Below, one piece after another: positions 3,062 through 56,684 of a stretch of DNA of 61,332 nt. The stretch comes from a virus. Its lineage: Duplodnaviria; Caudoviricetes. The DNA is taken from IMG/VR virus record IMGVR_UViG_3300028883_000051, positions 1-61,332 of that record, one strand, 5' to 3'. Positions within the stretch are counted from its first letter, which is position 1; each line of letters opens with the position of its first letter. A program made the position numbers and the translations under genes. The notes below the pieces were generated by a model. The model did no database searches, was not told where the DNA came from, and saw only the letters and a list, made by a program, of their open reading frames with translations.

Positions 3062-3324
3062 TATTCACGCACCGCCCATGCCTCAACTGCATAACGGATA
3101 TAGGTATGTAACAGGTCACTATACCCGGTTATTTCATAATATCCGGGTTCGTCTTTATACAATTGTGTACGCGTAACACCTACATTACGCATGCTGTCAC
3201 GCACACAATCTATTGCTTGCTCTCGGCTTGTATAGATCGCCCAAAGTACACGGCGATCCATCCCTGATTTACGTATATATACAAGCCAAACATTATCAGC
3301 ATAGCTAAATTCGTGTTTATTCAT
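3061..3324 (-). CDS. Small hypothetical protein (family B)
   Basis: VWLV...AIYTSREQAIDC motif; AGGAG RBS. Confidence 0.8.
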   Translation of the reverse strand: MNKHEFSYADNVWLVYIRKSGMDRRVLWAIYTSREQAIDCVRDSMRNVGVTRTQLYKDEPGYYEITGYSDLLHTYIRYAVEAWAVRE

Positions 3325-4312
3325 TTTCTTTCAACTCCTTTATTGTCCATAAATAGGCCCTATAAGCCATAGACGCAGCTACACTAAACATTAGGCGGTA
3401 TTCTTTTGCATTGAATACACGCCCCCAATTATTGATATAGCGTAAATCATTTTTATGTACGTCCGGATCAATTATTACCCGGATATGCATACGAATGAAA
3501 AACGCCAGTAATTGCGCTACTAGTTCTTCTAGCGCGTATTTCTTACTACCGAATTCACCGGATAGATCGCGATCCATACGTGTAGAATGACCCGTACTAT
3601 GCCCTAATTCATGCAATAGGGCAGTAAGGTAAGCAATTTGACTAGTGAATTGATCCTTCGCCGGAAGCACAATCAAATCCCTAAGTGGCAAATAGGCCGG
3701 ATTTTCATTAGGGATATATTGTATGCTAGGATGTGACGGCATGTTATCATACCATGCCGTAAATGATGCTTTAATATCAGCATCTTCTACAAGTGGGCCA
3801 TTACCATTAATAGCCCACTTATCCAGTAGTTCCTGTTCCTCATCCTTATCGGTGAAATTCAGGTATTCGATTGGATAAGCGTAAAAGTAGCGCATCCAAG
3901 GAACAGGTTTTTTGGCGCTATCGTCGCCATTAGCTATTTGTTCATCATATTCCTTTAGTTTCTCAGCGTCAGGAATATTCCAATATTGCATTAGAACACC
4001 TGACGCACCTTTTTTAATAACATAACGCTGGCGGTATATACCATCAACTTTAATTTTACGGGCGCTTTTGCCCGTGATCTGCCCCTTTGGTATATATGCC
4101 ATGATATTGTATGGCATAATACCTTTTTGTGCCTTAAGGTAATGGCCTACCGCCATAAGGACGTTTAGCCCGCTATAGGCGTGTCCTGTTATGGCATTTA
4201 CGATAGCATCTACTGGAATCCATACGTCGGAACGATTCCAGAAAGACCCTACATTTTCATCTTGTAGATATTGCCAGATAGTATCTGCAAATTTTTCAGG
4301 TACGTATGCCAT
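3317..4312 (-). CDS. ardC: ArdC-like anti-restriction protein (ssDNA-binding N-domain plus zincin-like MPTase domain)
   Basis: N-terminal NAITGHAYSGLN and IKKGASG; C-terminal AYLPLRDLIVLP, LLHELGHSTGH, FGSKKYALEELVA, all typical ArdC signatures. Confidence 0.85.
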   Translation of the reverse strand: MAYVPEKFADTIWQYLQDENVGSFWNRSDVWIPVDAIVNAITGHAYSGLNVLMAVGHYLKAQKGIMPYNIMAYIPKGQITGKSARKIKVDGIYRQRYVIKKGASGVLMQYWNIPDAEKLKEYDEQIANGDDSAKKPVPWMRYFYAYPIEYLNFTDKDEEQELLDKWAINGNGPLVEDADIKASFTAWYDNMPSHPSIQYIPNENPAYLPLRDLIVLPAKDQFTSQIAYLTALLHELGHSTGHSTRMDRDLSGEFGSKKYALEELVAQLLAFFIRMHIRVIIDPDVHKNDLRYINNWGRVFNAKEYRLMFSVAASMAYRAYLWTIKELKENE

Positions 4313-14465: not shown

Positions 14466-14693
14466 ATGATTACGGTACATGATTTTGTTTTTATGTACAG
14501 CTTACCGGAAAATAAAATTCCATCATACTTCGGGCCGGGTGTACGAGTTATCTATGACGGCATTTGCATTGAAGTAAAAAGATATGACAATGTACAAATG
14601 AATTATGAAATAGTCCTTGCTATTCTGGATAAAATTTATCCAAATGAACTATTCCGTATTTTTAATTTTGAATTTTTTAAGGATATAACGTGA
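14466..14693 (+). CDS. Hypothetical protein
   Basis: GGAG RBS, operon packing. Confidence 0.65.
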   Translation: MITVHDFVFMYSLPENKIPSYFGPGVRVIYDGICIEVKRYDNVQMNYEIVLAILDKIYPNELFRIFNFEFFKDIT

Positions 14694-14905
14694 TACCAGA
14701 AGAATGGCTTGAAGTCTTTAAAACCGCCGATATAATACATCAAATGAATATCGCCGTTATAATATCCCACGGAAGTATTACTATTTCTTATGCTGGTGAC
14801 GGCACGTGTCTTGATAATTTAAAACACTGTATGGAACTTTGGCGGAAAATAGATAAAGATATACGTTTTGAAGATTGCAGTTTATCGTTGGAGTATATGA
14901 GATAA
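14690..14905 (+). CDS. Hypothetical protein
   Basis: GTGA overlap, AAGGA RBS. Confidence 0.65.
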   Translation: MIPEEWLEVFKTADIIHQMNIAVIISHGSITISYAGDGTCLDNLKHCMELWRKIDKDIRFEDCSLSLEYMR

Positions 14906-14958
14906 TGTCAATCGTTTTATTTCTTACGTTATGTTTTCTCTGTTATTTGTTTATTAAT

Positions 14959-15031
14959 GGGGATGACAGGATTTAGATTACCGGGCTTACATTTAGACGG
15001 TAACACCCCGGTTCGATTCCGGGCATCTCCA
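14959..15031 (+). ncRNA. Mini-tmRNA: tRNA-like domain only, no mRNA-like domain
   Basis: Acceptor stem GGGGATG/CATCTCC with G3.U70 and discriminator A; stemless D-loop ACAGGATTTAGA; helix TTACCG/CGGTAA; 3-nt connector; T arm CCCGG-TTCGATT-CCGGG. Confidence 0.8.
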
Positions 15032-15033
15032 CT

Positions 15034-15096
15034 AACTGCAATGCCCTTACCTTACTTTACTTGGACGTGAAAGCGGGGGGTATTGCAGTTTTTTTT
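15034..15096 (+). terminator. Long stem-loop plus U-tract (terminator or second structured RNA)
   Basis: 15-bp stem 15034-15048/15076-15090, 27-nt loop with CGT-GAAA-GCG, then T run. Confidence 0.65.
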
Positions 15097-15146
15097 ATTT
15101 ATGCTATAATGAAAATTGAATTATATAACACAAAGGAGTGTTTTCT

Positions 15147-16244
15147 ATGAAGGTTTTTGGGTATCATATGGGGCCGAATTATCACGGAAATAGGCTTTTA
15201 GATTTATATGGACGTGGTAAGACTCCGGCTGTAGCCCTTACATTACTTGATAACAGAGAAGGTATTCCTGAGCTTATTCACCAGCATCCTGAAACGATGA
15301 TTATTGCACGCCGCTGGTGGGCGGGAAATAATCCAAATGGGGATGATAACGCTCAGGATTACATGGAAGGTGATGCTTATATGGATGGGCTTGTTACTTT
15401 CTACGGAAAGAACAAGGATGCTTACTACTACGTAGGCAATGAGCCGACACCTGCGACGTTACAGGATAAATTGCGGCTTGTTGAATTTCTGGAAAAAGCC
15501 GTAAAGTATGCCGTCGATTACGGTTACAAAATTGTTATCGGTAATTTCTCTGTCGGTAATCCGTCAACTGCGGATATTACAGGTGTTCTTTCTCCTATCT
15601 TCCGTCTTGTTGAAAAGTATGATAACGTCTATCTCGGTATGCACGATTATGGCGCATATCGTGGTCGCCGTCCCGACGGTAGCCCGGATGTATTCTTTCC
15701 TAATAAAGCGGCAGAAATCGTACAGCATTTTCCCGGCTGCTTCAATAAAATTATCCTTACAGAGGTTGGGCTTGATCGTCTCGTCCAATTTCCAAACAGC
15801 GGTAGTTGGAAAAAGGTACGGCTTACCGATGAAGAATATGCCGATGTACTACACCGGATGTACGTAGATTACTGGCGTTTTGCTGGCGTAATCGGTGCTT
15901 GTGTGTTCTTTTGGGATACTGATGAACACCGTTGGGGCGATTATAATATGTACCGCGCATCGGCGTTCCAGAATCGCGTATTGCAAACGGATCAGCTTCT
16001 TGTACTTCCGCCTACTACCGGGGATGATGATGACGATGACGATGATACACCGCCATCACTTCCACCGGAAATTGAACTTGATGATATAGAGGATGCGCTT
16101 ACCGAACTGGTTAGCATTATCAATGAAATCAAGGCTGCGCTGTCAAGTATCGATGGAGCTTTTTCGCTGGTAATTAATAACACAACGGAAAGTTATAATC
16201 TGGCGACACAGCTACTTGATAAAATTCAAGAACTAAATGATTAA
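15147..16244 (+). CDS. Glycoside hydrolase-like (clan GH-A TIM barrel) protein, lysin candidate
   Basis: VGNEP acid/base motif, GMHDY, ILTEVG nucleophile motif, CVFFW; acidic Pro-rich linker and coiled-coil tail; AAGGAG RBS. Confidence 0.7.
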   Translation: MKVFGYHMGPNYHGNRLLDLYGRGKTPAVALTLLDNREGIPELIHQHPETMIIARRWWAGNNPNGDDNAQDYMEGDAYMDGLVTFYGKNKDAYYYVGNEPTPATLQDKLRLVEFLEKAVKYAVDYGYKIVIGNFSVGNPSTADITGVLSPIFRLVEKYDNVYLGMHDYGAYRGRRPDGSPDVFFPNKAAEIVQHFPGCFNKIILTEVGLDRLVQFPNSGSWKKVRLTDEEYADVLHRMYVDYWRFAGVIGACVFFWDTDEHRWGDYNMYRASAFQNRVLQTDQLLVLPPTTGDDDDDDDDTPPSLPPEIELDDIEDALTELVSIINEIKAALSSIDGAFSLVINNTTESYNLATQLLDKIQELND

Positions 16245-16281: not shown

Positions 16282-16362
16282 GCCGATGTGGTGGAATGGC
16301 AGACACGGTTGACTTAAAATCAACTGCCTTTGGGCGTGTGGGTTCGACTCCCACCTTCGGCA
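16282..16362 (+). tRNA. tRNA-Leu(UAA)
   Basis: Cloverleaf: GCCGATG/CTTCGGC (one U.U), anticodon arm GTTGA-CTTAAAA-TCAAC, long variable arm, GTGGG-TTCGACT-CCCAC; CCA not encoded. Confidence 0.93.
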
Positions 16363-16922
16363 CTTTCTATTTCATTAAAATCTCCCTCTATCGGTTCAAG
16401 CCCGGCTTGTACCTTTTCAACATCGATATTCTGAGGGAGCATTTCAAGCTGTTGTAAGACCAATAAAACATCTTCTACCTGATTAGGATTACTGGCAGAA
16501 GGTGTTTTCTTTTTCTCTGTTCCGGCAGGAAGCGCCCGCATACCATCTTCTGTATACTCGATAGGCTGATCAGCCTGCCACAGCACCTTAAGCTCCTTAA
16601 GGGCCTTCATGGCGGTATCTAGTAGACGGCTATCACCTGATTTTGTAGGATTACCGTCGTCGTCTGGTTGTGTACTGCGTTCCCACGCCTTCATAGCCTG
16701 ATTATAAATGGATGTATATTGTCGTGTTTGCATGATTTTAATTTCTGCAACGGCATTACCCATCTGCTTTAAGTAGTATTCCTGTTCCTCTTTTACCTGT
16801 CGGCGTAACTGCCCGATAGGTACATCAAGCTGTGTCGCAAGCTCCTGTATCGTTTTACCAGAAGCAAGCTGATCAAGAATATATAAACGTTCGGGTAATG
16901 TCTCTGGTTTTGTTACTTTCAT
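16320..16922 (-). CDS. HTH protein, probable terminase small subunit
   Basis: N-terminal HTH (ASGKTIQELATQLDV), helical core, AWERS...GDSRLL pattern seen in phage TerS-like proteins. Confidence 0.6.
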   Translation of the reverse strand: MKVTKPETLPERLYILDQLASGKTIQELATQLDVPIGQLRRQVKEEQEYYLKQMGNAVAEIKIMQTRQYTSIYNQAMKAWERSTQPDDDGNPTKSGDSRLLDTAMKALKELKVLWQADQPIEYTEDGMRALPAGTEKKKTPSASNPNQVEDVLLVLQQLEMLPQNIDVEKVQAGLEPIEGDFNEIESAEGGSRTHTPKGS

Positions 16923-54823: not shown

Positions 54824-54844
54824 ATAAGCTCCTTTATGATAGAT

Positions 54845-54881
54845 AAAAAGAGACAGGGAAAATTTGATAAATTCCCTGTCT
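54845..54881 (-). terminator. Terminator-like hairpin just upstream of nrdJ
   Basis: AGACAGGGAA/TTCCCTGTCT 10-bp stem followed by CTTTTT on minus strand. Confidence 0.65.
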
Positions 54882-54895
54882 AATTGTACTGTATT

Positions 54896-55072
54896 AAAAA
54901 AATTACAGGTGGAAAAACTTTAGTGAGGACAAAAGAGATAAACCAATATTCTTACTCTATTTAAGGGTAGGTAAGGTTTATCTGAGTTCCTTACTGATTT
55001 TATATATTTAAGTGACAAAATAACAAAACAAGGCTAATCCAATATTAGGTAACGTTTTGTAGAGTTCACTGT
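54896..55072 (-). ncRNA. Ro60-associated structured RNA(s), candidate Y-RNA-like
   Basis: Own promoter, no ORF, two tandem stem-loops sharing GAACTC, TTACCTA, AATATTGG and TTTTGTC; 5'/3' ends can pair; ends in U7. Confidence 0.7.
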
Positions 55073-55076
55073 AAAT

Positions 55077-55105
55077 AGGATACCACAAAAAAAGTTACTT
55101 GTCAA
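55077..55105 (-). promoter_or_regulatory. sigma70 promoter directly after the Ro60 stop
   Basis: TTGACA(55105-55100)-17-TATCCT(55082-55077) with TG extension. Confidence 0.8.
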
Positions 55106-55115
55106 CATCCCTGTA

Positions 55116-56684
55116 TTAGAAATTCAATAGAATTGTTTCCAGTACAACCGGATCGTCAATGCCGGGCAAAACAAATACTGCCGGATCACGTATATCCGCT
55201 AGATTATATTCATTCGGGGCCATAGCCATGATAATCAGTTTAGCGTCAGGATTGATCATCTGACGATACGTATCAAATAACTGCATAACATGGTGTCCGG
55301 TATTGACTTCACTATCGGTAAACACAACAAAAGCATCGTAATACGTATTATATTCTATTGCTTTTTCAAACAGTAAACCCGGATTAGTTGCCCCGTGTAA
55401 CTGATTCTGTAAATACGTAGCAAAGTTATAATAGGAAAAATTATATACATCTTCTTCTACAGGCATAAGATAATGGGAAAACATATAAGCCGTTGTTTTC
55501 TCTTTTTCAAGCAATAACTTTCCGATAAAGGCTTCCATCTCATAACAGGTAAGTGGGCCATTATTCCATCCCATAGATGCGCTAATATCAAAGCCTACGC
55601 ATAGCCGCTTTCCTGTTGGCTTATAATGCTGCTGGCTTATACCGACAGCTTCATTTAATGCCCTGACAATTTTAGGATACACGTGCCATGTACTATGCCT
55701 GCCTTTTGCACTCTTATATACCATAAGTGCTTTAAAGATATGATAAGGGTGCATGTGTACATTTTTAATTCTTTTGGTATTCGTAATATGATCAATCATT
55801 ATTTCTAGAAAATCTTTATTCTCAAAACAGCCTACACGTGACATTGTAGATAAATTACGGATAAGAGCACCATAAGGCATACTGTGCGCAAGCGTCATCC
55901 ATACACGCGGATACTTCTTCTGTTCCGGTGTAAGCATATCGTGCGTAACGGTAAAATCAAATACATTATACAGAGTATCAATTAAATCTATAAGTTCTGC
56001 TTCTGTTAGACTTGCATCTTTAAGTGCAAAGATATGTTCAAGTAAATCATTATTGCCTGTATCGGTGTACATATGATACCGTACAATATCTTGGTGTTCA
56101 TCTTTAAGTTTTGGATGATATGTTGTAAACACAAGTTTATGGCTTACATCATTTCGTTCCGGGTATTTTACCATTTGATATGTAAGCTGCGCTGTAGAAC
56201 GAGTATTGTACCAATCTGCTACGGCACGTTTTACTGCCTGTCCTGTGCCTCTTATTTGCTTAAGATAAAAAATAAACATTAAGAAATGTGACGCAGTACG
56301 AATTTCCGGAATATAAGCAATAGCTTCTTTCCGAATATCAGGAATAGAACTATTACATGCTACGGCAAGAGCAAACAGCGTATAGTCCGGCTTAATAAAA
56401 ATACTATGTTTATAGGCGTTCTTAATCATAAACAGAAACAAAGATGCTTGTTCCTTATGATTAAGACCACCTTCTGTTAGGCGTATAAATCGTGAAGCCT
56501 GCCGGGCTTCTAGGCTATAATACGTAGATACAGCACCTAGTACCAGATATTTCTTGAACGTCAGCAATTCGCTCTCTGGAAATACATAGGCACCTTCTGC
56601 GTTCAGTACCATATTTTCTTTGTAGGGTTGGTATACTGAATCGTCATTACTATAACGCTTGCGGACAATATCTTTAAACATCAT
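55116..56684 (-). CDS. Ro60/Rsr-like TROVE + vWA RNA-binding protein
   Basis: N.EGAYVF, L.YQMVKY..R, MPYGALIRNL..M, HPY, MIDAS DISASM, FVVFTDSE, YRQ.INPDAKLI. Confidence 0.93.
   Translation of the reverse strand: MMFKDIVRKRYSNDDSVYQPYKENMVLNAEGAYVFPESELLTFKKYLVLGAVSTYYSLEARQASRFIRLTEGGLNHKEQASLFLFMIKNAYKHSIFIKPDYTLFALAVACNSSIPDIRKEAIAYIPEIRTASHFLMFIFYLKQIRGTGQAVKRAVADWYNTRSTAQLTYQMVKYPERNDVSHKLVFTTYHPKLKDEHQDIVRYHMYTDTGNNDLLEHIFALKDASLTEAELIDLIDTLYNVFDFTVTHDMLTPEQKKYPRVWMTLAHSMPYGALIRNLSTMSRVGCFENKDFLEIMIDHITNTKRIKNVHMHPYHIFKALMVYKSAKGRHSTWHVYPKIVRALNEAVGISQQHYKPTGKRLCVGFDISASMGWNNGPLTCYEMEAFIGKLLLEKEKTTAYMFSHYLMPVEEDVYNFSYYNFATYLQNQLHGATNPGLLFEKAIEYNTYYDAFVVFTDSEVNTGHHVMQLFDTYRQMINPDAKLIIMAMAPNEYNLADIRDPAVFVLPGIDDPVVLETILLNF

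What the first reader, a model, noticed from the sequence alone, without database searches (positions are those of the whole stretch)
14959..15031. Phage-encoded 73-nt mini-tmRNA with no mRNA/tag domain
Seen: GGGGATG/CATCTCC-A acceptor with G3.U70; an unpaired D-loop ACAGGATTTAGA that parallels tmRNA's GGATTCGA; a 6-bp helix TTACCG/CGGTAA capped by only 14 nt where tmRNA carries roughly 250+ nt of pseudoknots and tag ORF; a 3-nt connector (CAC, usually GAC); and a perfect T arm. Established: G3.U70 is the AlaRS determinant; the stemless D-loop and short connector form the SmpB site; tag-less tmRNAs are known from some protist mitochondria, while the phage tmRNAs I know are full length. Inference: an alanylatable SmpB/EF-Tu ligand that either decoys host trans-translation, so phage proteins escape SsrA tagging, or adds Ala to stalled chains without a degradation tag. 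No smpB gene is seen, so it would use the host protein.
Basis: partly seen in the sequence, partly recalled or inferred. Interest (0 to 1): 0.9.

Follow-up and report, generated by a model that had tools for sequence, protein, structure and literature searches.

The report
Phage tmRNA reduced to its tRNA-like domain
This uncultured marine-sediment phage carries a 73-base RNA gene that is the alanine-accepting, tRNA-like end of a ribosome-rescue RNA (tmRNA) with the tag-coding middle missing, a form already reported in one mycobacteriophage but shown here to be common in phages.

Summary
Window 14959-15031 (+) has a 7-bp acceptor stem with G3:U70 and an A discriminator, no D stem, a 6-bp helix capped by 14 nt, a CAC connector and a 5-bp T arm. 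A strong hairpin plus T8 follows it.

It is a tRNA-like-domain-only (TLD-only) tmRNA:
- Rfam's tmRNA model aligns both ends at 43.2 bits (cut-off 47). The published TLD-only tmRNA of mycobacteriophage DS6A gets the same score. The tRNA model gives 21.1 bits (cut-off 29).
- A covariance model built from 24 relatives without the window scores it 55.5 bits (E 1.8e-10).
- Two narrow patterns pulled 107 viral-contig loci. They gave 63 distinct sequences (14 and 49) of 64-92 nt that passed my filters.
- On 27 distinct sequences, 14 of 19 pairs change on both sides.
- None of the 58 phage records searched, window included, encodes SmpB. None of the 20 searched for tmRNA holds a full-length one.

The most likely action is as a ligand of host AlaRS, SmpB and EF-Tu that competes with host tmRNA. 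Two papers say a similar molecule inhibits E. coli tmRNA. Tag-free alanine transfer is the main rival. Function was not tested here.

Novelty: a new member of a known kind, in a family far wider than I found in print.

The parts
14959..15031 (+). TLD-only tmRNA gene, 73 nt, up to and including the discriminator A
   Evidence: RF00023 43.2 bits over model 1-374. R2, built without the window, 55.5 bits and E 1.8e-10. Sequence.
14959..14965 (+). Acceptor stem, 5' strand GGGGATG; the third base is the G of G3:U70
   Evidence: 7 of 7 pairs with 15024-15030. G:U at the third pair in 26 of 27 family sequences.
14966..14977 (+). Stemless D-loop ACAGGATTTAGA
   Evidence: By my reading of the alignment, it matches 5 of the 6 D-loop columns held by at least 85% of the 27 sequences. 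The TTTAGA variant also occurs in L144.
14978..15003 (+). P2-like helix TTACCG/CGGTAA (6 bp) with its 14-nt cap GGCTTACATTTAGA
   Evidence: The R2 alignment pairs these strands. All 7 pairs of this helix change on both sides across the family.
15004..15006 (+). 3-nt connector CAC
   Evidence: The central A is present in 25 of 27 sequences. GAC is the majority; CAC also occurs in L007, L014, L052 and DS6A (alignment).
15007..15023 (+). T arm: 5-bp stem CCCGG/CCGGG and 7-nt loop TTCGATT
   Evidence: 4 of the 5 stem pairs change on both sides across the family.
15024..15031 (+). Acceptor stem, 3' strand CATCTCC, plus discriminator A; CTA follows instead of CCA
   Evidence: U70 and A73 are present in 27 of 27 sequences.
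15034..15096 (+). Terminator-like hairpin (-25.1 kcal/mol) ending in a run of 8 T
   Evidence: RNAfold of 15032-15100. The simple scan missed it because its loop is larger than the scan allows.

Best explanation
Window 14959-15031 is a phage gene for a tmRNA reduced to its tRNA-like domain (TLD). It belongs to the same class as the TLD-only tmRNA of mycobacteriophage DS6A.

Shown here:
- the architecture;
- membership of a large, covarying phage family;
- no room for pseudoknots or an ordinary tag frame;
- no phage SmpB;
- a terminator directly downstream.

Inferred mechanism:
1. The RNA is cut out of a longer transcript by host RNase P and 3' processing enzymes.
2. It receives CCA from the host CCA-adding enzyme. 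The phage's own tRNA-Leu also lacks an encoded CCA.
3. It is charged with alanine by host AlaRS through G3:U70 and A73.
4. It binds host SmpB and EF-Tu.

Because it has no resume codon, tag frame or usable stop codon, it cannot complete trans-translation. Its most likely net effect is to compete with host tmRNA for SmpB, and for stalled ribosomes. That would damp ssrA tagging and the linked decay of proteins and mRNAs during infection.

My odds: TLD-only tmRNA identity about 0.9. Competitive inhibition as the main function about 0.45, with tag-free Ala transfer the main alternative.
For: Identity:
- RF00023 aligns both ends at 43.2 bits and E 1.6e-17, against tRNA RF00005 at 21.1 bits.
- DS6A's published TLD-only tmRNA (JN698994 28478-28557) scores the same 43.2 bits and 53.6 bits with R1.
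- R2, built from 24 relatives without the window, scores the window 55.5 bits.

Family:
- 33 viral loci matched a pattern that left acceptor pairs 5-7, three T-stem pairs and the whole P2 helix free. 15 distinct sequences, window included, pair 7 of 7 in the acceptor.
- 12 of 14 loci reach Rfam's tmRNA cut-off as 68-85-nt matches.
- A second pattern gave 74 new loci. 64 of them have R2 hits at E<=1e-5, making 49 distinct sequences.

Covariation on 27 distinct sequences:
- 95.4% of cells are paired, against 68.3% in shuffles.
- 14 of 19 pairs change on both sides.
- The covariation score is 0.680 against 0.165. 0 of 500 shuffles reach it, and the slid controls stay at or below 0.142.

No tag in the family:
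- Loops are as short as 3-4 nt.
- Only 3 of 27 hold a GCN...stop string.

No phage SmpB: 0 of 1, 0 of 19 and 0 of 38 records.

No full-length tmRNA in 20 records.

tRNA-Leu also lacks an encoded CCA.

Terminator hairpin, -25.1 kcal/mol, plus T8.

Function, from paper passages only:
- PMC4131195 says a molecule similar to the DS6A TLD, chargeable or not, strongly inhibits tmRNA, perhaps by titrating SmpB.
- PMC11915505 says the DS6A form inhibits endogenous tmRNA when expressed in E. coli.

The roles of G3:U70 for AlaRS and of the TLD for SmpB and EF-Tu binding are recalled textbook knowledge, not tested here.
Against: - The Rfam score is under the gathering cut-off (43.2 against 47), and ARAGORN does not call it.
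- The D-loop departs from the family's TTCGA: it has an extra T, and A in place of C.
- The predicted minimum-energy fold (-27.4 kcal/mol) is not the TLD fold (-23.3 kcal/mol).
- No CCA is encoded.
- No close relative of this particular gene was found. The best global identity is 0.78, and much of that was fixed by my pattern. None of the 5 contigs that encode a terminase relative has an R2 hit, but they are short. Conservation of this very copy is therefore not shown.
- The covariation alignment was fitted to the model, and several columns were fixed by my search patterns.
- The inhibition result is known to me only through two citing papers. The original, Mao et al. 2009, is not held. It was obtained in E. 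coli, not in this phage's unknown host.
- A benefit to a phage from blocking trans-translation is not established.
Confidence: 0.6

Rival explanations
1. Tag-free rescue RNA. The Ala-charged mini-tmRNA enters stalled ribosomes with host SmpB and EF-Tu and accepts the nascent chain. The chain, lengthened by one or more Ala, is then released by other factors or by drop-off. Ribosomes are freed without an ssrA degron, which would spare phage proteins made from cut mRNAs.
For: - All charging and elongation-factor determinants are kept across the family: G3:U70 in 26 of 27, A73 in 27 of 27, and a 7+5-bp acceptor/T stack. That conservation is unnecessary if only SmpB titration mattered.
- CDS-less tmRNAs persist in mitochondria alongside SmpB and are thought to help with incomplete mRNAs (passage of PMC11915505).
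Against: - The relayed E. coli result says inhibition did not depend on chargeability.
- Without a template and stop codon, the ribosome would again hold a peptidyl-RNA with an empty A site.
- No release factor or peptidyl-tRNA hydrolase gene was identified in the window, but only 27 ORFs were scanned against Pfam.
Confidence: 0.22
2. Decaying remnant. A full-length phage or host tmRNA gene lost its middle by deletion, and the 73-nt piece in this phage is non-functional DNA.
For: - Many family members keep an AACC-containing inner hairpin just inside the P2 helix. From memory, this resembles the start of the region that follows P2a in full-length tmRNAs, which would fit origin by internal deletion.
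- The window copy lacks that hairpin, has a variant D-loop and falls under Rfam's cut-off.
- Bacterial full-length tmRNAs share its acceptor and T arm exactly.
Against: - All 18 pairs of the three helices are intact, and the T loop is at consensus.
- The gene is a GC island in AT-rich flanks and is followed by a terminator.
- 27 divergent sequences keep the fold through compensatory changes.
- The short form, and never a long one, is found in 20 of 20 records.
Confidence: 0.07
3. An aberrant tRNA, a Ro60-bound Y RNA (YrlA-like), or an attP copy of the host ssrA 3' end.
For: - The acceptor and T arm are identical to those of tRNA-Ala genes in actinobacterial tRNA arrays.
- The phage encodes a Ro60 orthologue, and bacterial and phage Y RNAs mimic tRNA (PMC4201824).
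- Mycobacteriophage genomes hold unannotated matches to the T arm and acceptor end only. I read these, from memory, as attP sites in the tmRNA gene.
Against: - There is no D stem and no 7-nt anticodon loop. The tRNA model gives 21.1 bits, below 29.
- The Ro60 gene lies 40 kb away. The ends of this RNA form an open acceptor stem, not a Ro-binding stem.
- None of the 7 listed Rfam matches is a Y RNA (5 lower-scoring overlapping same-clan matches were left out of the listing).
- Ro60 is no more frequent with the RNA (2 of 30 records) than without it (2 of 8).
- An attP would carry only the 3' part, whereas here a matching 5' strand is present. No integrase is found in the window.
Confidence: 0.04
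4. Micro-tagging tmRNA. The 12 bases GCT TAC ATT TAG that fill the loop act as a resume codon plus a three-codon tag (Ala-Tyr-Ile-stop).
For: - The string fills the loop exactly. Only 3.2% of 20000 shuffles of the loop give a GCN...stop string.
- Tags of 2 aa exist in otherwise ordinary tmRNAs (PMC11915505).
Against: - Only 3 of 27 family loops hold such a string, and some loops are 3-4 nt long.
- The frame sits in a hairpin loop directly on the TLD. It has no pseudoknot or spacer to place it in the decoding centre.
Confidence: 0.03

Closest known systems
TLD-only tmRNA of Mycobacterium phage DS6A (JN698994 28478-28557; listed as 'TLD only' in PMC4131195 and as Phage__Mycobacterium.9 in PMC11915505)
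   Same: - Phage-borne and 73-80 nt long.
- GGGG acceptor with G3:U70 and an A discriminator.
- Stemless D-loop, one helix closed by a short cap, a CAC connector and a T arm.
- No CCA encoded; CT follows the discriminator in both.
- Identical RF00023 score of 43.2 bits.
- Both match the family models.
- Unannotated in the GenBank record.
   Different: - DS6A is a temperate actinophage with an integrase. No integrase was found in the window phage, which comes from marine sediment.
- DS6A keeps the AACC-containing inner hairpin; the window has a plain 14-nt cap.
- D-loop sequences differ.
- Sequence similarity is confined to the conserved TLD positions.
Standard one-piece bacterial tmRNA (Rfam RF00023)
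   Same: The tRNA-like domain matches. Full-length tmRNAs from three bacterial MAGs share the exact 22-nt T-arm and acceptor end, and a very similar 5' end (GGGGATGA..CAGG.TTT.GA).
   Different: About 250-370 nt are missing: the pseudoknots, resume codon, tag frame and stop. The RNA cannot template a degradation tag or normal termination.
CDS-less organellar tmRNAs (jakobid mitochondria, Rfam RF02544; two Mallomonadaceae plastids)
   Same: They are reduced to roughly the TLD, have no tag frame, and rely on an SmpB encoded elsewhere (PMC11915505 passage).
   Different: The RF02544 model does not match the window element. Those are cellular genes kept with their own SmpB, whereas this is a viral gene acting on a host system.
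Bacterial and phage Y RNAs of the YrlA type (Ro60 partners with a tRNA-like module)
   Same: Small tRNA-mimicking RNAs found in phages. The window phage also encodes Ro60.
   Different: As I recall it, and in line with the passages of PMC4201824, the ends of YrlA form the Ro60-binding stem and its acceptor-like stem is closed. Here the topology is the reverse, with an aminoacylatable end. The element is not adjacent to the Ro60 gene.

Membership tests
   Across the family, G:U in 26 of 27 and A73 in 27 of 27.
   The D-loop is a variant, TTTAGA, also seen in L144.
   6 bp plus a 14-nt cap, 73 nt in total. The family ranges from 64 to 92 nt.
   R2 gives 55.5 bits and E 1.8e-10 across the full model. 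DS6A itself scores 65.3 bits, but it was part of the alignment R2 was built from.
   Known only from passages in PMC4131195 and PMC11915505 about a DS6A-like molecule in E. coli.
Standard tmRNA (Rfam RF00023) | Score at or above the curated gathering cut-off of 47 bits | tested here: not met
   43.2 bits. 17 of 20 related records do reach the cut-off with their short forms.
Standard tmRNA (Rfam RF00023) | mRNA-like domain: resume codon, tag reading frame and stop, flanked by pseudoknots | tested here: not met
   Only 14 nt lie between the helix strands. A GCN...stop string is present in the window loop but in only 3 of 27 family loops.
tRNA (Rfam RF00005) | Cloverleaf with a D stem and an anticodon stem with a 7-nt loop; score of 29 bits or more | tested here: not met
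   21.1 bits. ARAGORN makes no call. There is no D stem and the cap is 14 nt.
Mitochondrial tmRNA (Rfam RF02544) | Match to the family model | tested here: not met
   No match at the site at E<=10.
Permuted two-piece tmRNA (Rfam RF04321) | The acceptor 3' piece precedes the 5' piece in the gene; score of 47 bits or more | tested here: not met
   20.2 bits, E 0.016. The supposed downstream 5' strand is the 3' arm of the terminator hairpin.
YrlA-type Y RNA | Encoded next to Ro60; the 5' and 3' ends form the Ro60-binding stem | tested here: not met
   The Ro60 gene lies at 55116-56684, 40 kb away. The ends of this RNA form an open acceptor stem. None of the 7 listed Rfam matches is a Y RNA (5 lower-scoring same-clan overlaps were left out of the listing).

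The most novel reading that the evidence does not exclude
TLD-only tmRNAs may be a widespread, overlooked class of phage RNA effectors aimed at the host SmpB/tmRNA system. Either they shut off ssrA tagging so that phage proteins made from cleaved or non-stop mRNAs survive, or they act as decoys. As decoys they would target host factors and defence systems that read the tmRNA-SmpB complex, such as RNase R control or the SmpB-like domains of CoCoNuT systems. That would make them an RNA-only counter-measure against a translation-surveillance pathway.
Probability: 0.15. Interest if true: 0.85.

Novelty: new member of a known kind. Interest (0 to 1): 0.5.

Why it matters
In the library I could search, a tmRNA stripped to its tRNA-like domain was reported for a single phage, DS6A. 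Two papers relay that such a molecule blocks E. coli trans-translation.

This window shows the same device in an unrelated marine-sediment phage. Following it up showed that the device is common:
- 63 distinct short forms that passed my filters, from two deliberately narrow patterns in viral contigs;
- unannotated copies in cultured Streptomyces phages (BRock and relatives);
- never accompanied by a phage SmpB or a full-length tmRNA in the records searched.

Standard annotation misses these genes. ARAGORN needs a tag, and the 2025 tmRNA database paper describes rejecting truncated forms and forms with large internal deletions.

If these RNAs do titrate SmpB or donate Ala without a tag, many phages manipulate ribosome rescue with a roughly 75-nt RNA. 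That can be tested directly in laboratory hosts, and it would put function to a piece of phage 'dark matter' that sits among phage tRNA genes.

Tried and rejected
- **Expression:** The look-up of sequencing runs listed 3 DNA holders (marine sediment metagenomes) and no RNA holder. Laying their contigs showed no variant of the RNA gene. One run did not cover it, and another held only a 151-nt identical contig. This bears neither way on expression.
- **Close relatives of the phage:** blastn of 14600-15500 against 50,697 phage records found nothing. The neighbouring ORF found no relative in viral contigs. The terminase found 5 short contigs at about 50% identity, none with an R2 hit.
- **Host:** the exact 22-nt T-arm and acceptor end occurs in only 7 genome loci from unrelated phyla. 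By ARAGORN these are 3 full-length tmRNAs, 1 tRNA-Ala and 3 uncalled; two of the uncalled ones look like tRNA-Ala by eye. No host can be named. One of the 7, L081, has its tmRNA followed by a tRNA-Leu(taa), as in the window, but shares no protein with the window. Atlas relatives of the neighbouring ORF are most often Chloroflexota, which is a weak lead only.
- **Functional link to neighbours:** ORF 15147-16244 has no Pfam or PHROG hit. It looks like a TIM-barrel glycosyl hydrolase by Atlas structure, so it seems unrelated.
- **Ro60 link:** rejected.
- **Permuted tmRNA reading:** rejected.
- **ARAGORN's 343-nt 'tmRNA' in L008, L015 and L037:** rejected as a false 5' extension into coding sequence. 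Rfam places only the 85-nt form.
- **Rows dropped before counts:**
  - L034 and L036 have 6 of 7 acceptor pairs and score 27-38 bits.
  - 21 of 30 genome-contig pattern loci score below 43 bits with R1.
  - 10 of 74 loci from the second pattern have no R2 hit at E<=1e-5.
- **Not available:** Mao et al. 2009 is not held. Supplementary files of papers were not opened. The tmRNA database and its supplements may list more phage CDS-less entries than the text names.
- **Not-in-print searches:** searches found only the DS6A case.

Full report
**1. The observation**

One search confirms each element at the stated coordinates on the + strand.
- Acceptor: GGGGATG (14959-14965) pairs 7 of 7 with CATCTCC (15024-15030). 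The third pair is G:T. The discriminator is A (15031), followed by CTA rather than CCA.
- D region: 12 unpaired bases, ACAGGATTTAGA, with no partner for a D stem.
- Helix: TTACCG/CGGTAA, 6 bp, closed by 14 nt.
- Connector: CAC.
- T arm: 5-bp stem with a TTCGATT loop.

Downstream, 15034-15090 folds into a -25.1 kcal/mol hairpin that runs into eight T. The simple terminator scan missed it because of its large loop.

The gene lies in the 241-nt gap between a small ORF ending at 14905 and an ORF starting at ATG 15147, on the same strand as both. It is a GC island: 0.51, against 0.26-0.35 in the flanks.

Neither ARAGORN nor Rfam at gathering thresholds reports it. Both find only tRNA-Leu(taa) at 16282-16363. 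The window is a linear virus record estimated at 83% complete.

**2. What it is**
- Rfam's tmRNA model RF00023 aligns both ends of the model (1-374) to 14959-15034 at 43.2 bits, E 1.6e-17. The gathering score is 47.
- The tRNA model gives 21.1 bits against a cut-off of 29.
- The mitochondrial tmRNA model finds nothing there.
- The permuted-tmRNA model gives 20.2 bits, by borrowing the 3' arm of the terminator as a false acceptor strand.

So the element scores better as the two ends of a tmRNA than as a tRNA, but it falls just short of Rfam's threshold.

**3. Relatives**

The first pattern fixed only GGGG, GGATT, the T loop with two stem pairs, and CTCCA. It allowed 64-98 nt in all. It matched 33 viral-contig loci.

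For a rough chance estimate, the pattern specifies 24 bases and allows 155 gap combinations on two strands. On my own arithmetic that predicts less than one match per 10^11 bases.

The positions left free pair up. 15 distinct sequences, window included, have 7 of 7 acceptor pairs. L034 and L036 have 6 of 7 and were dropped.

Of 14 loci rescanned with Rfam, 12 reach the tmRNA gathering score as matches of 68-85 nt. No longer tmRNA appears in any of them.

**4. The leave-one-out test**

Model R1 was built from the 15 sequences. It found the published TLD-only tmRNA of mycobacteriophage DS6A at JN698994 28478-28557 with 53.6 bits. With RF00023, DS6A scores 43.2 bits, exactly like the window.

Model R2 was built from 24 relatives without the window: 14 viral, DS6A, and 9 from bacterial MAG contigs. 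It scores the window at 55.5 bits, E 1.8e-10, across the full model. The next hit in the 61 kb is 15.8 bits.

R2 also finds unannotated copies in Streptomyces phage BRock (64.0 bits) and Alone3 (43.7 bits, with T-stem mismatches). Both lie inside tRNA arrays near RNA ligase genes. BLAST adds LuckySocke, GiJojo and pSt2308. In GiJojo the match is annotated as a hypothetical protein.

A second pattern fixed the window's own acceptor sequence. It returned 76 viral loci, 74 of them new. 64 of the 74 have R2 hits at E<=1e-5, giving 49 distinct sequences. One of them, L144, shares the window's TTTAGA D-loop variant.

No near relative of the window's own sequence turned up. The best global identity is 0.78, and much of that was imposed by the pattern.

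**5. Covariation**

The test used 27 distinct sequences aligned to R2.
- 95.4% of cells form standard pairs, against 68.3% in shuffles.
- 14 of 19 pairs show changes on both sides, including all 7 pairs of the P2-like helix.
- The covariation score is 0.680, against 0.165 in shuffles. None of 500 shuffles reaches it.
- Sliding the partners by 1-3 columns gives scores of 0.142 or less.
- U70 and A73 are invariant. G3 is present in 26 of 27.
- The central A of the connector is present in 25 of 27.

Two caveats apply. The alignment was fitted to the model, and my patterns fixed several columns. The P2 helix, acceptor pairs 5-7 and the three outer T-stem pairs were not fixed, and they carry the signal.

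**6. No tag, no SmpB, no long form**
- Family caps range from 3 to 32 nt.
- Only 3 of 27 hold a GCN...stop string.
- The window's loop does read GCT TAC ATT TAG. 3.2% of shuffles of the loop do as well. I treat this as coincidence and list it as a low-odds rival.
- SmpB (PF01668) is absent from the window. It is also absent from 19 records of the first set and from 38 records of 20 kb or more in the second set. The same search rings in 10-12 of the 14 control genomes.
- RF00023 over 20 whole records finds only the short forms.
- No integrase is found in the window. An attP reading would in any case not explain the matching 5' strand.

**7. Mechanism**

What is shown is the architecture and its conservation. 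The rest is inference.

From textbook knowledge, which I recall rather than tested: G3:U70 with A73 is the AlaRS identity set. The 7+5-bp acceptor/T stack is the EF-Tu binding surface. The stemless D-loop and the base of P2 form the SmpB site.

The missing CCA is not a sign of decay, because the phage's tRNA-Leu also lacks one. The host must therefore add CCA after transcription.

With no template or usable stop, the RNA cannot complete trans-translation. Two papers, read as passages, relay the experimental evidence:
- PMC11915505 says the DS6A form inhibits endogenous tmRNA when expressed in E. coli.

The primary paper, Mao et al. 2009, is not held.

I therefore favour competitive inhibition of host trans-translation, at about 0.45. 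Against it, the strict conservation of the charging determinants argues that alanylation matters. That keeps tag-free Ala transfer alive, at about 0.22.

**8. Comparison and novelty**

The element is a member of the DS6A-type TLD-only tmRNA class. All structural criteria are met. It is not a member of standard tmRNA, tRNA, mt-tmRNA, permuted tmRNA or YrlA.

What I did not find in print is the breadth. Seven searches returned only the DS6A case. The breadth consists of dozens of distinct phage sequences across very different GC contents and contig types, plus unannotated copies in cultured Streptomyces phages. The 2025 database paper describes rejecting truncated forms and forms with large internal deletions. 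Its database and supplements, which I could not open, may hold more.

**9. Other points**
- The phage encodes a Ro60 orthologue at 55116-56684.
- Ro60 is found in 3 of 22 other records of the first set (two of which hold the dropped L034 and L036). In the second set it occurs in 2 of 30 records with the RNA and 2 of 8 without it. It is therefore a trait of large tRNA-rich phages, not a partner of this RNA.
- The habitat is marine sediment.
- The host is unknown.

Noticed in passing
window 55116-56684 (-): A 522-aa Ro60 orthologue (TROVE 1e-17 plus Ro60 vWA domain 1.2e-18) in a 61-kb phage. The 292-nt gap downstream of it (54824-55115) has no Rfam match. It could hold an undescribed Y RNA.
   Followed up: partly
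L077 2491-2568 (Streptomyces phage BRock, KX925554 97143-97220); also LuckySocke, GiJojo, Alone3, pSt2308: Cultured Streptomyces phages carry unannotated TLD-only tmRNA genes inside their tRNA arrays. In GiJojo the match is annotated as a hypothetical protein.
   Followed up: partly
L008 2976-3318, L015, L037: ARAGORN calls a 343-nt tmRNA with a 30-aa tag here. The upstream part looks like coding sequence, and Rfam places only the 85-nt short form. This is probably an ARAGORN false extension.
   Followed up: partly
L023 5916-6012 (-): A Pistol ribozyme (RF02679, 50.7 bits against a cut-off of 34.5) lies 2.2 kb from a mini-tmRNA in a viral contig.
   Followed up: no
L052, L073, L066/L067, L055, L050/L059, L062, L057 (bacterial MAG contigs): Nine loci in MAGs of very different phyla hold the short form at 43-76 bits. 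They include two copies in one Poribacteria chromosome and two in one Opitutales MAG. Whether these are prophages, mis-binned phage contigs or host genes was not checked.
   Followed up: no
window 14971-14977 and 14991-14997: The heptamer ATTTAGA occurs twice inside the RNA: in the D-loop, and just before the 3' strand of the helix. By my rough estimate such a repeat is expected by chance about once in eight sequences of this length. No meaning is assigned.
   Followed up: no
window 15101-15109 and 15133-15149: TGCTATAAT (an extended -10 type) and AAGGAG, 8 nt before ATG 15147, suggest the next ORF has its own promoter after the terminator. That ORF resembles TIM-barrel glycosyl hydrolases by Atlas structure, and its relatives are most often Chloroflexota.
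   Followed up: partly
window 3317-4312 (-): ArdC-like N-terminal domain plus a zincin-like metallopeptidase (MPTase-PolyVal) protein. This domain pair is typical of anti-restriction ArdC proteins.
   Followed up: no
Mycobacteriophages Validus, Milly, Mufasa, Shandong1 and others, about 33-34 kb: Unannotated 27-nt matches to the T arm and acceptor end only. I read them, from memory, as attP cores for integration into the host tmRNA gene. They are not TLD-only genes.
   Followed up: no
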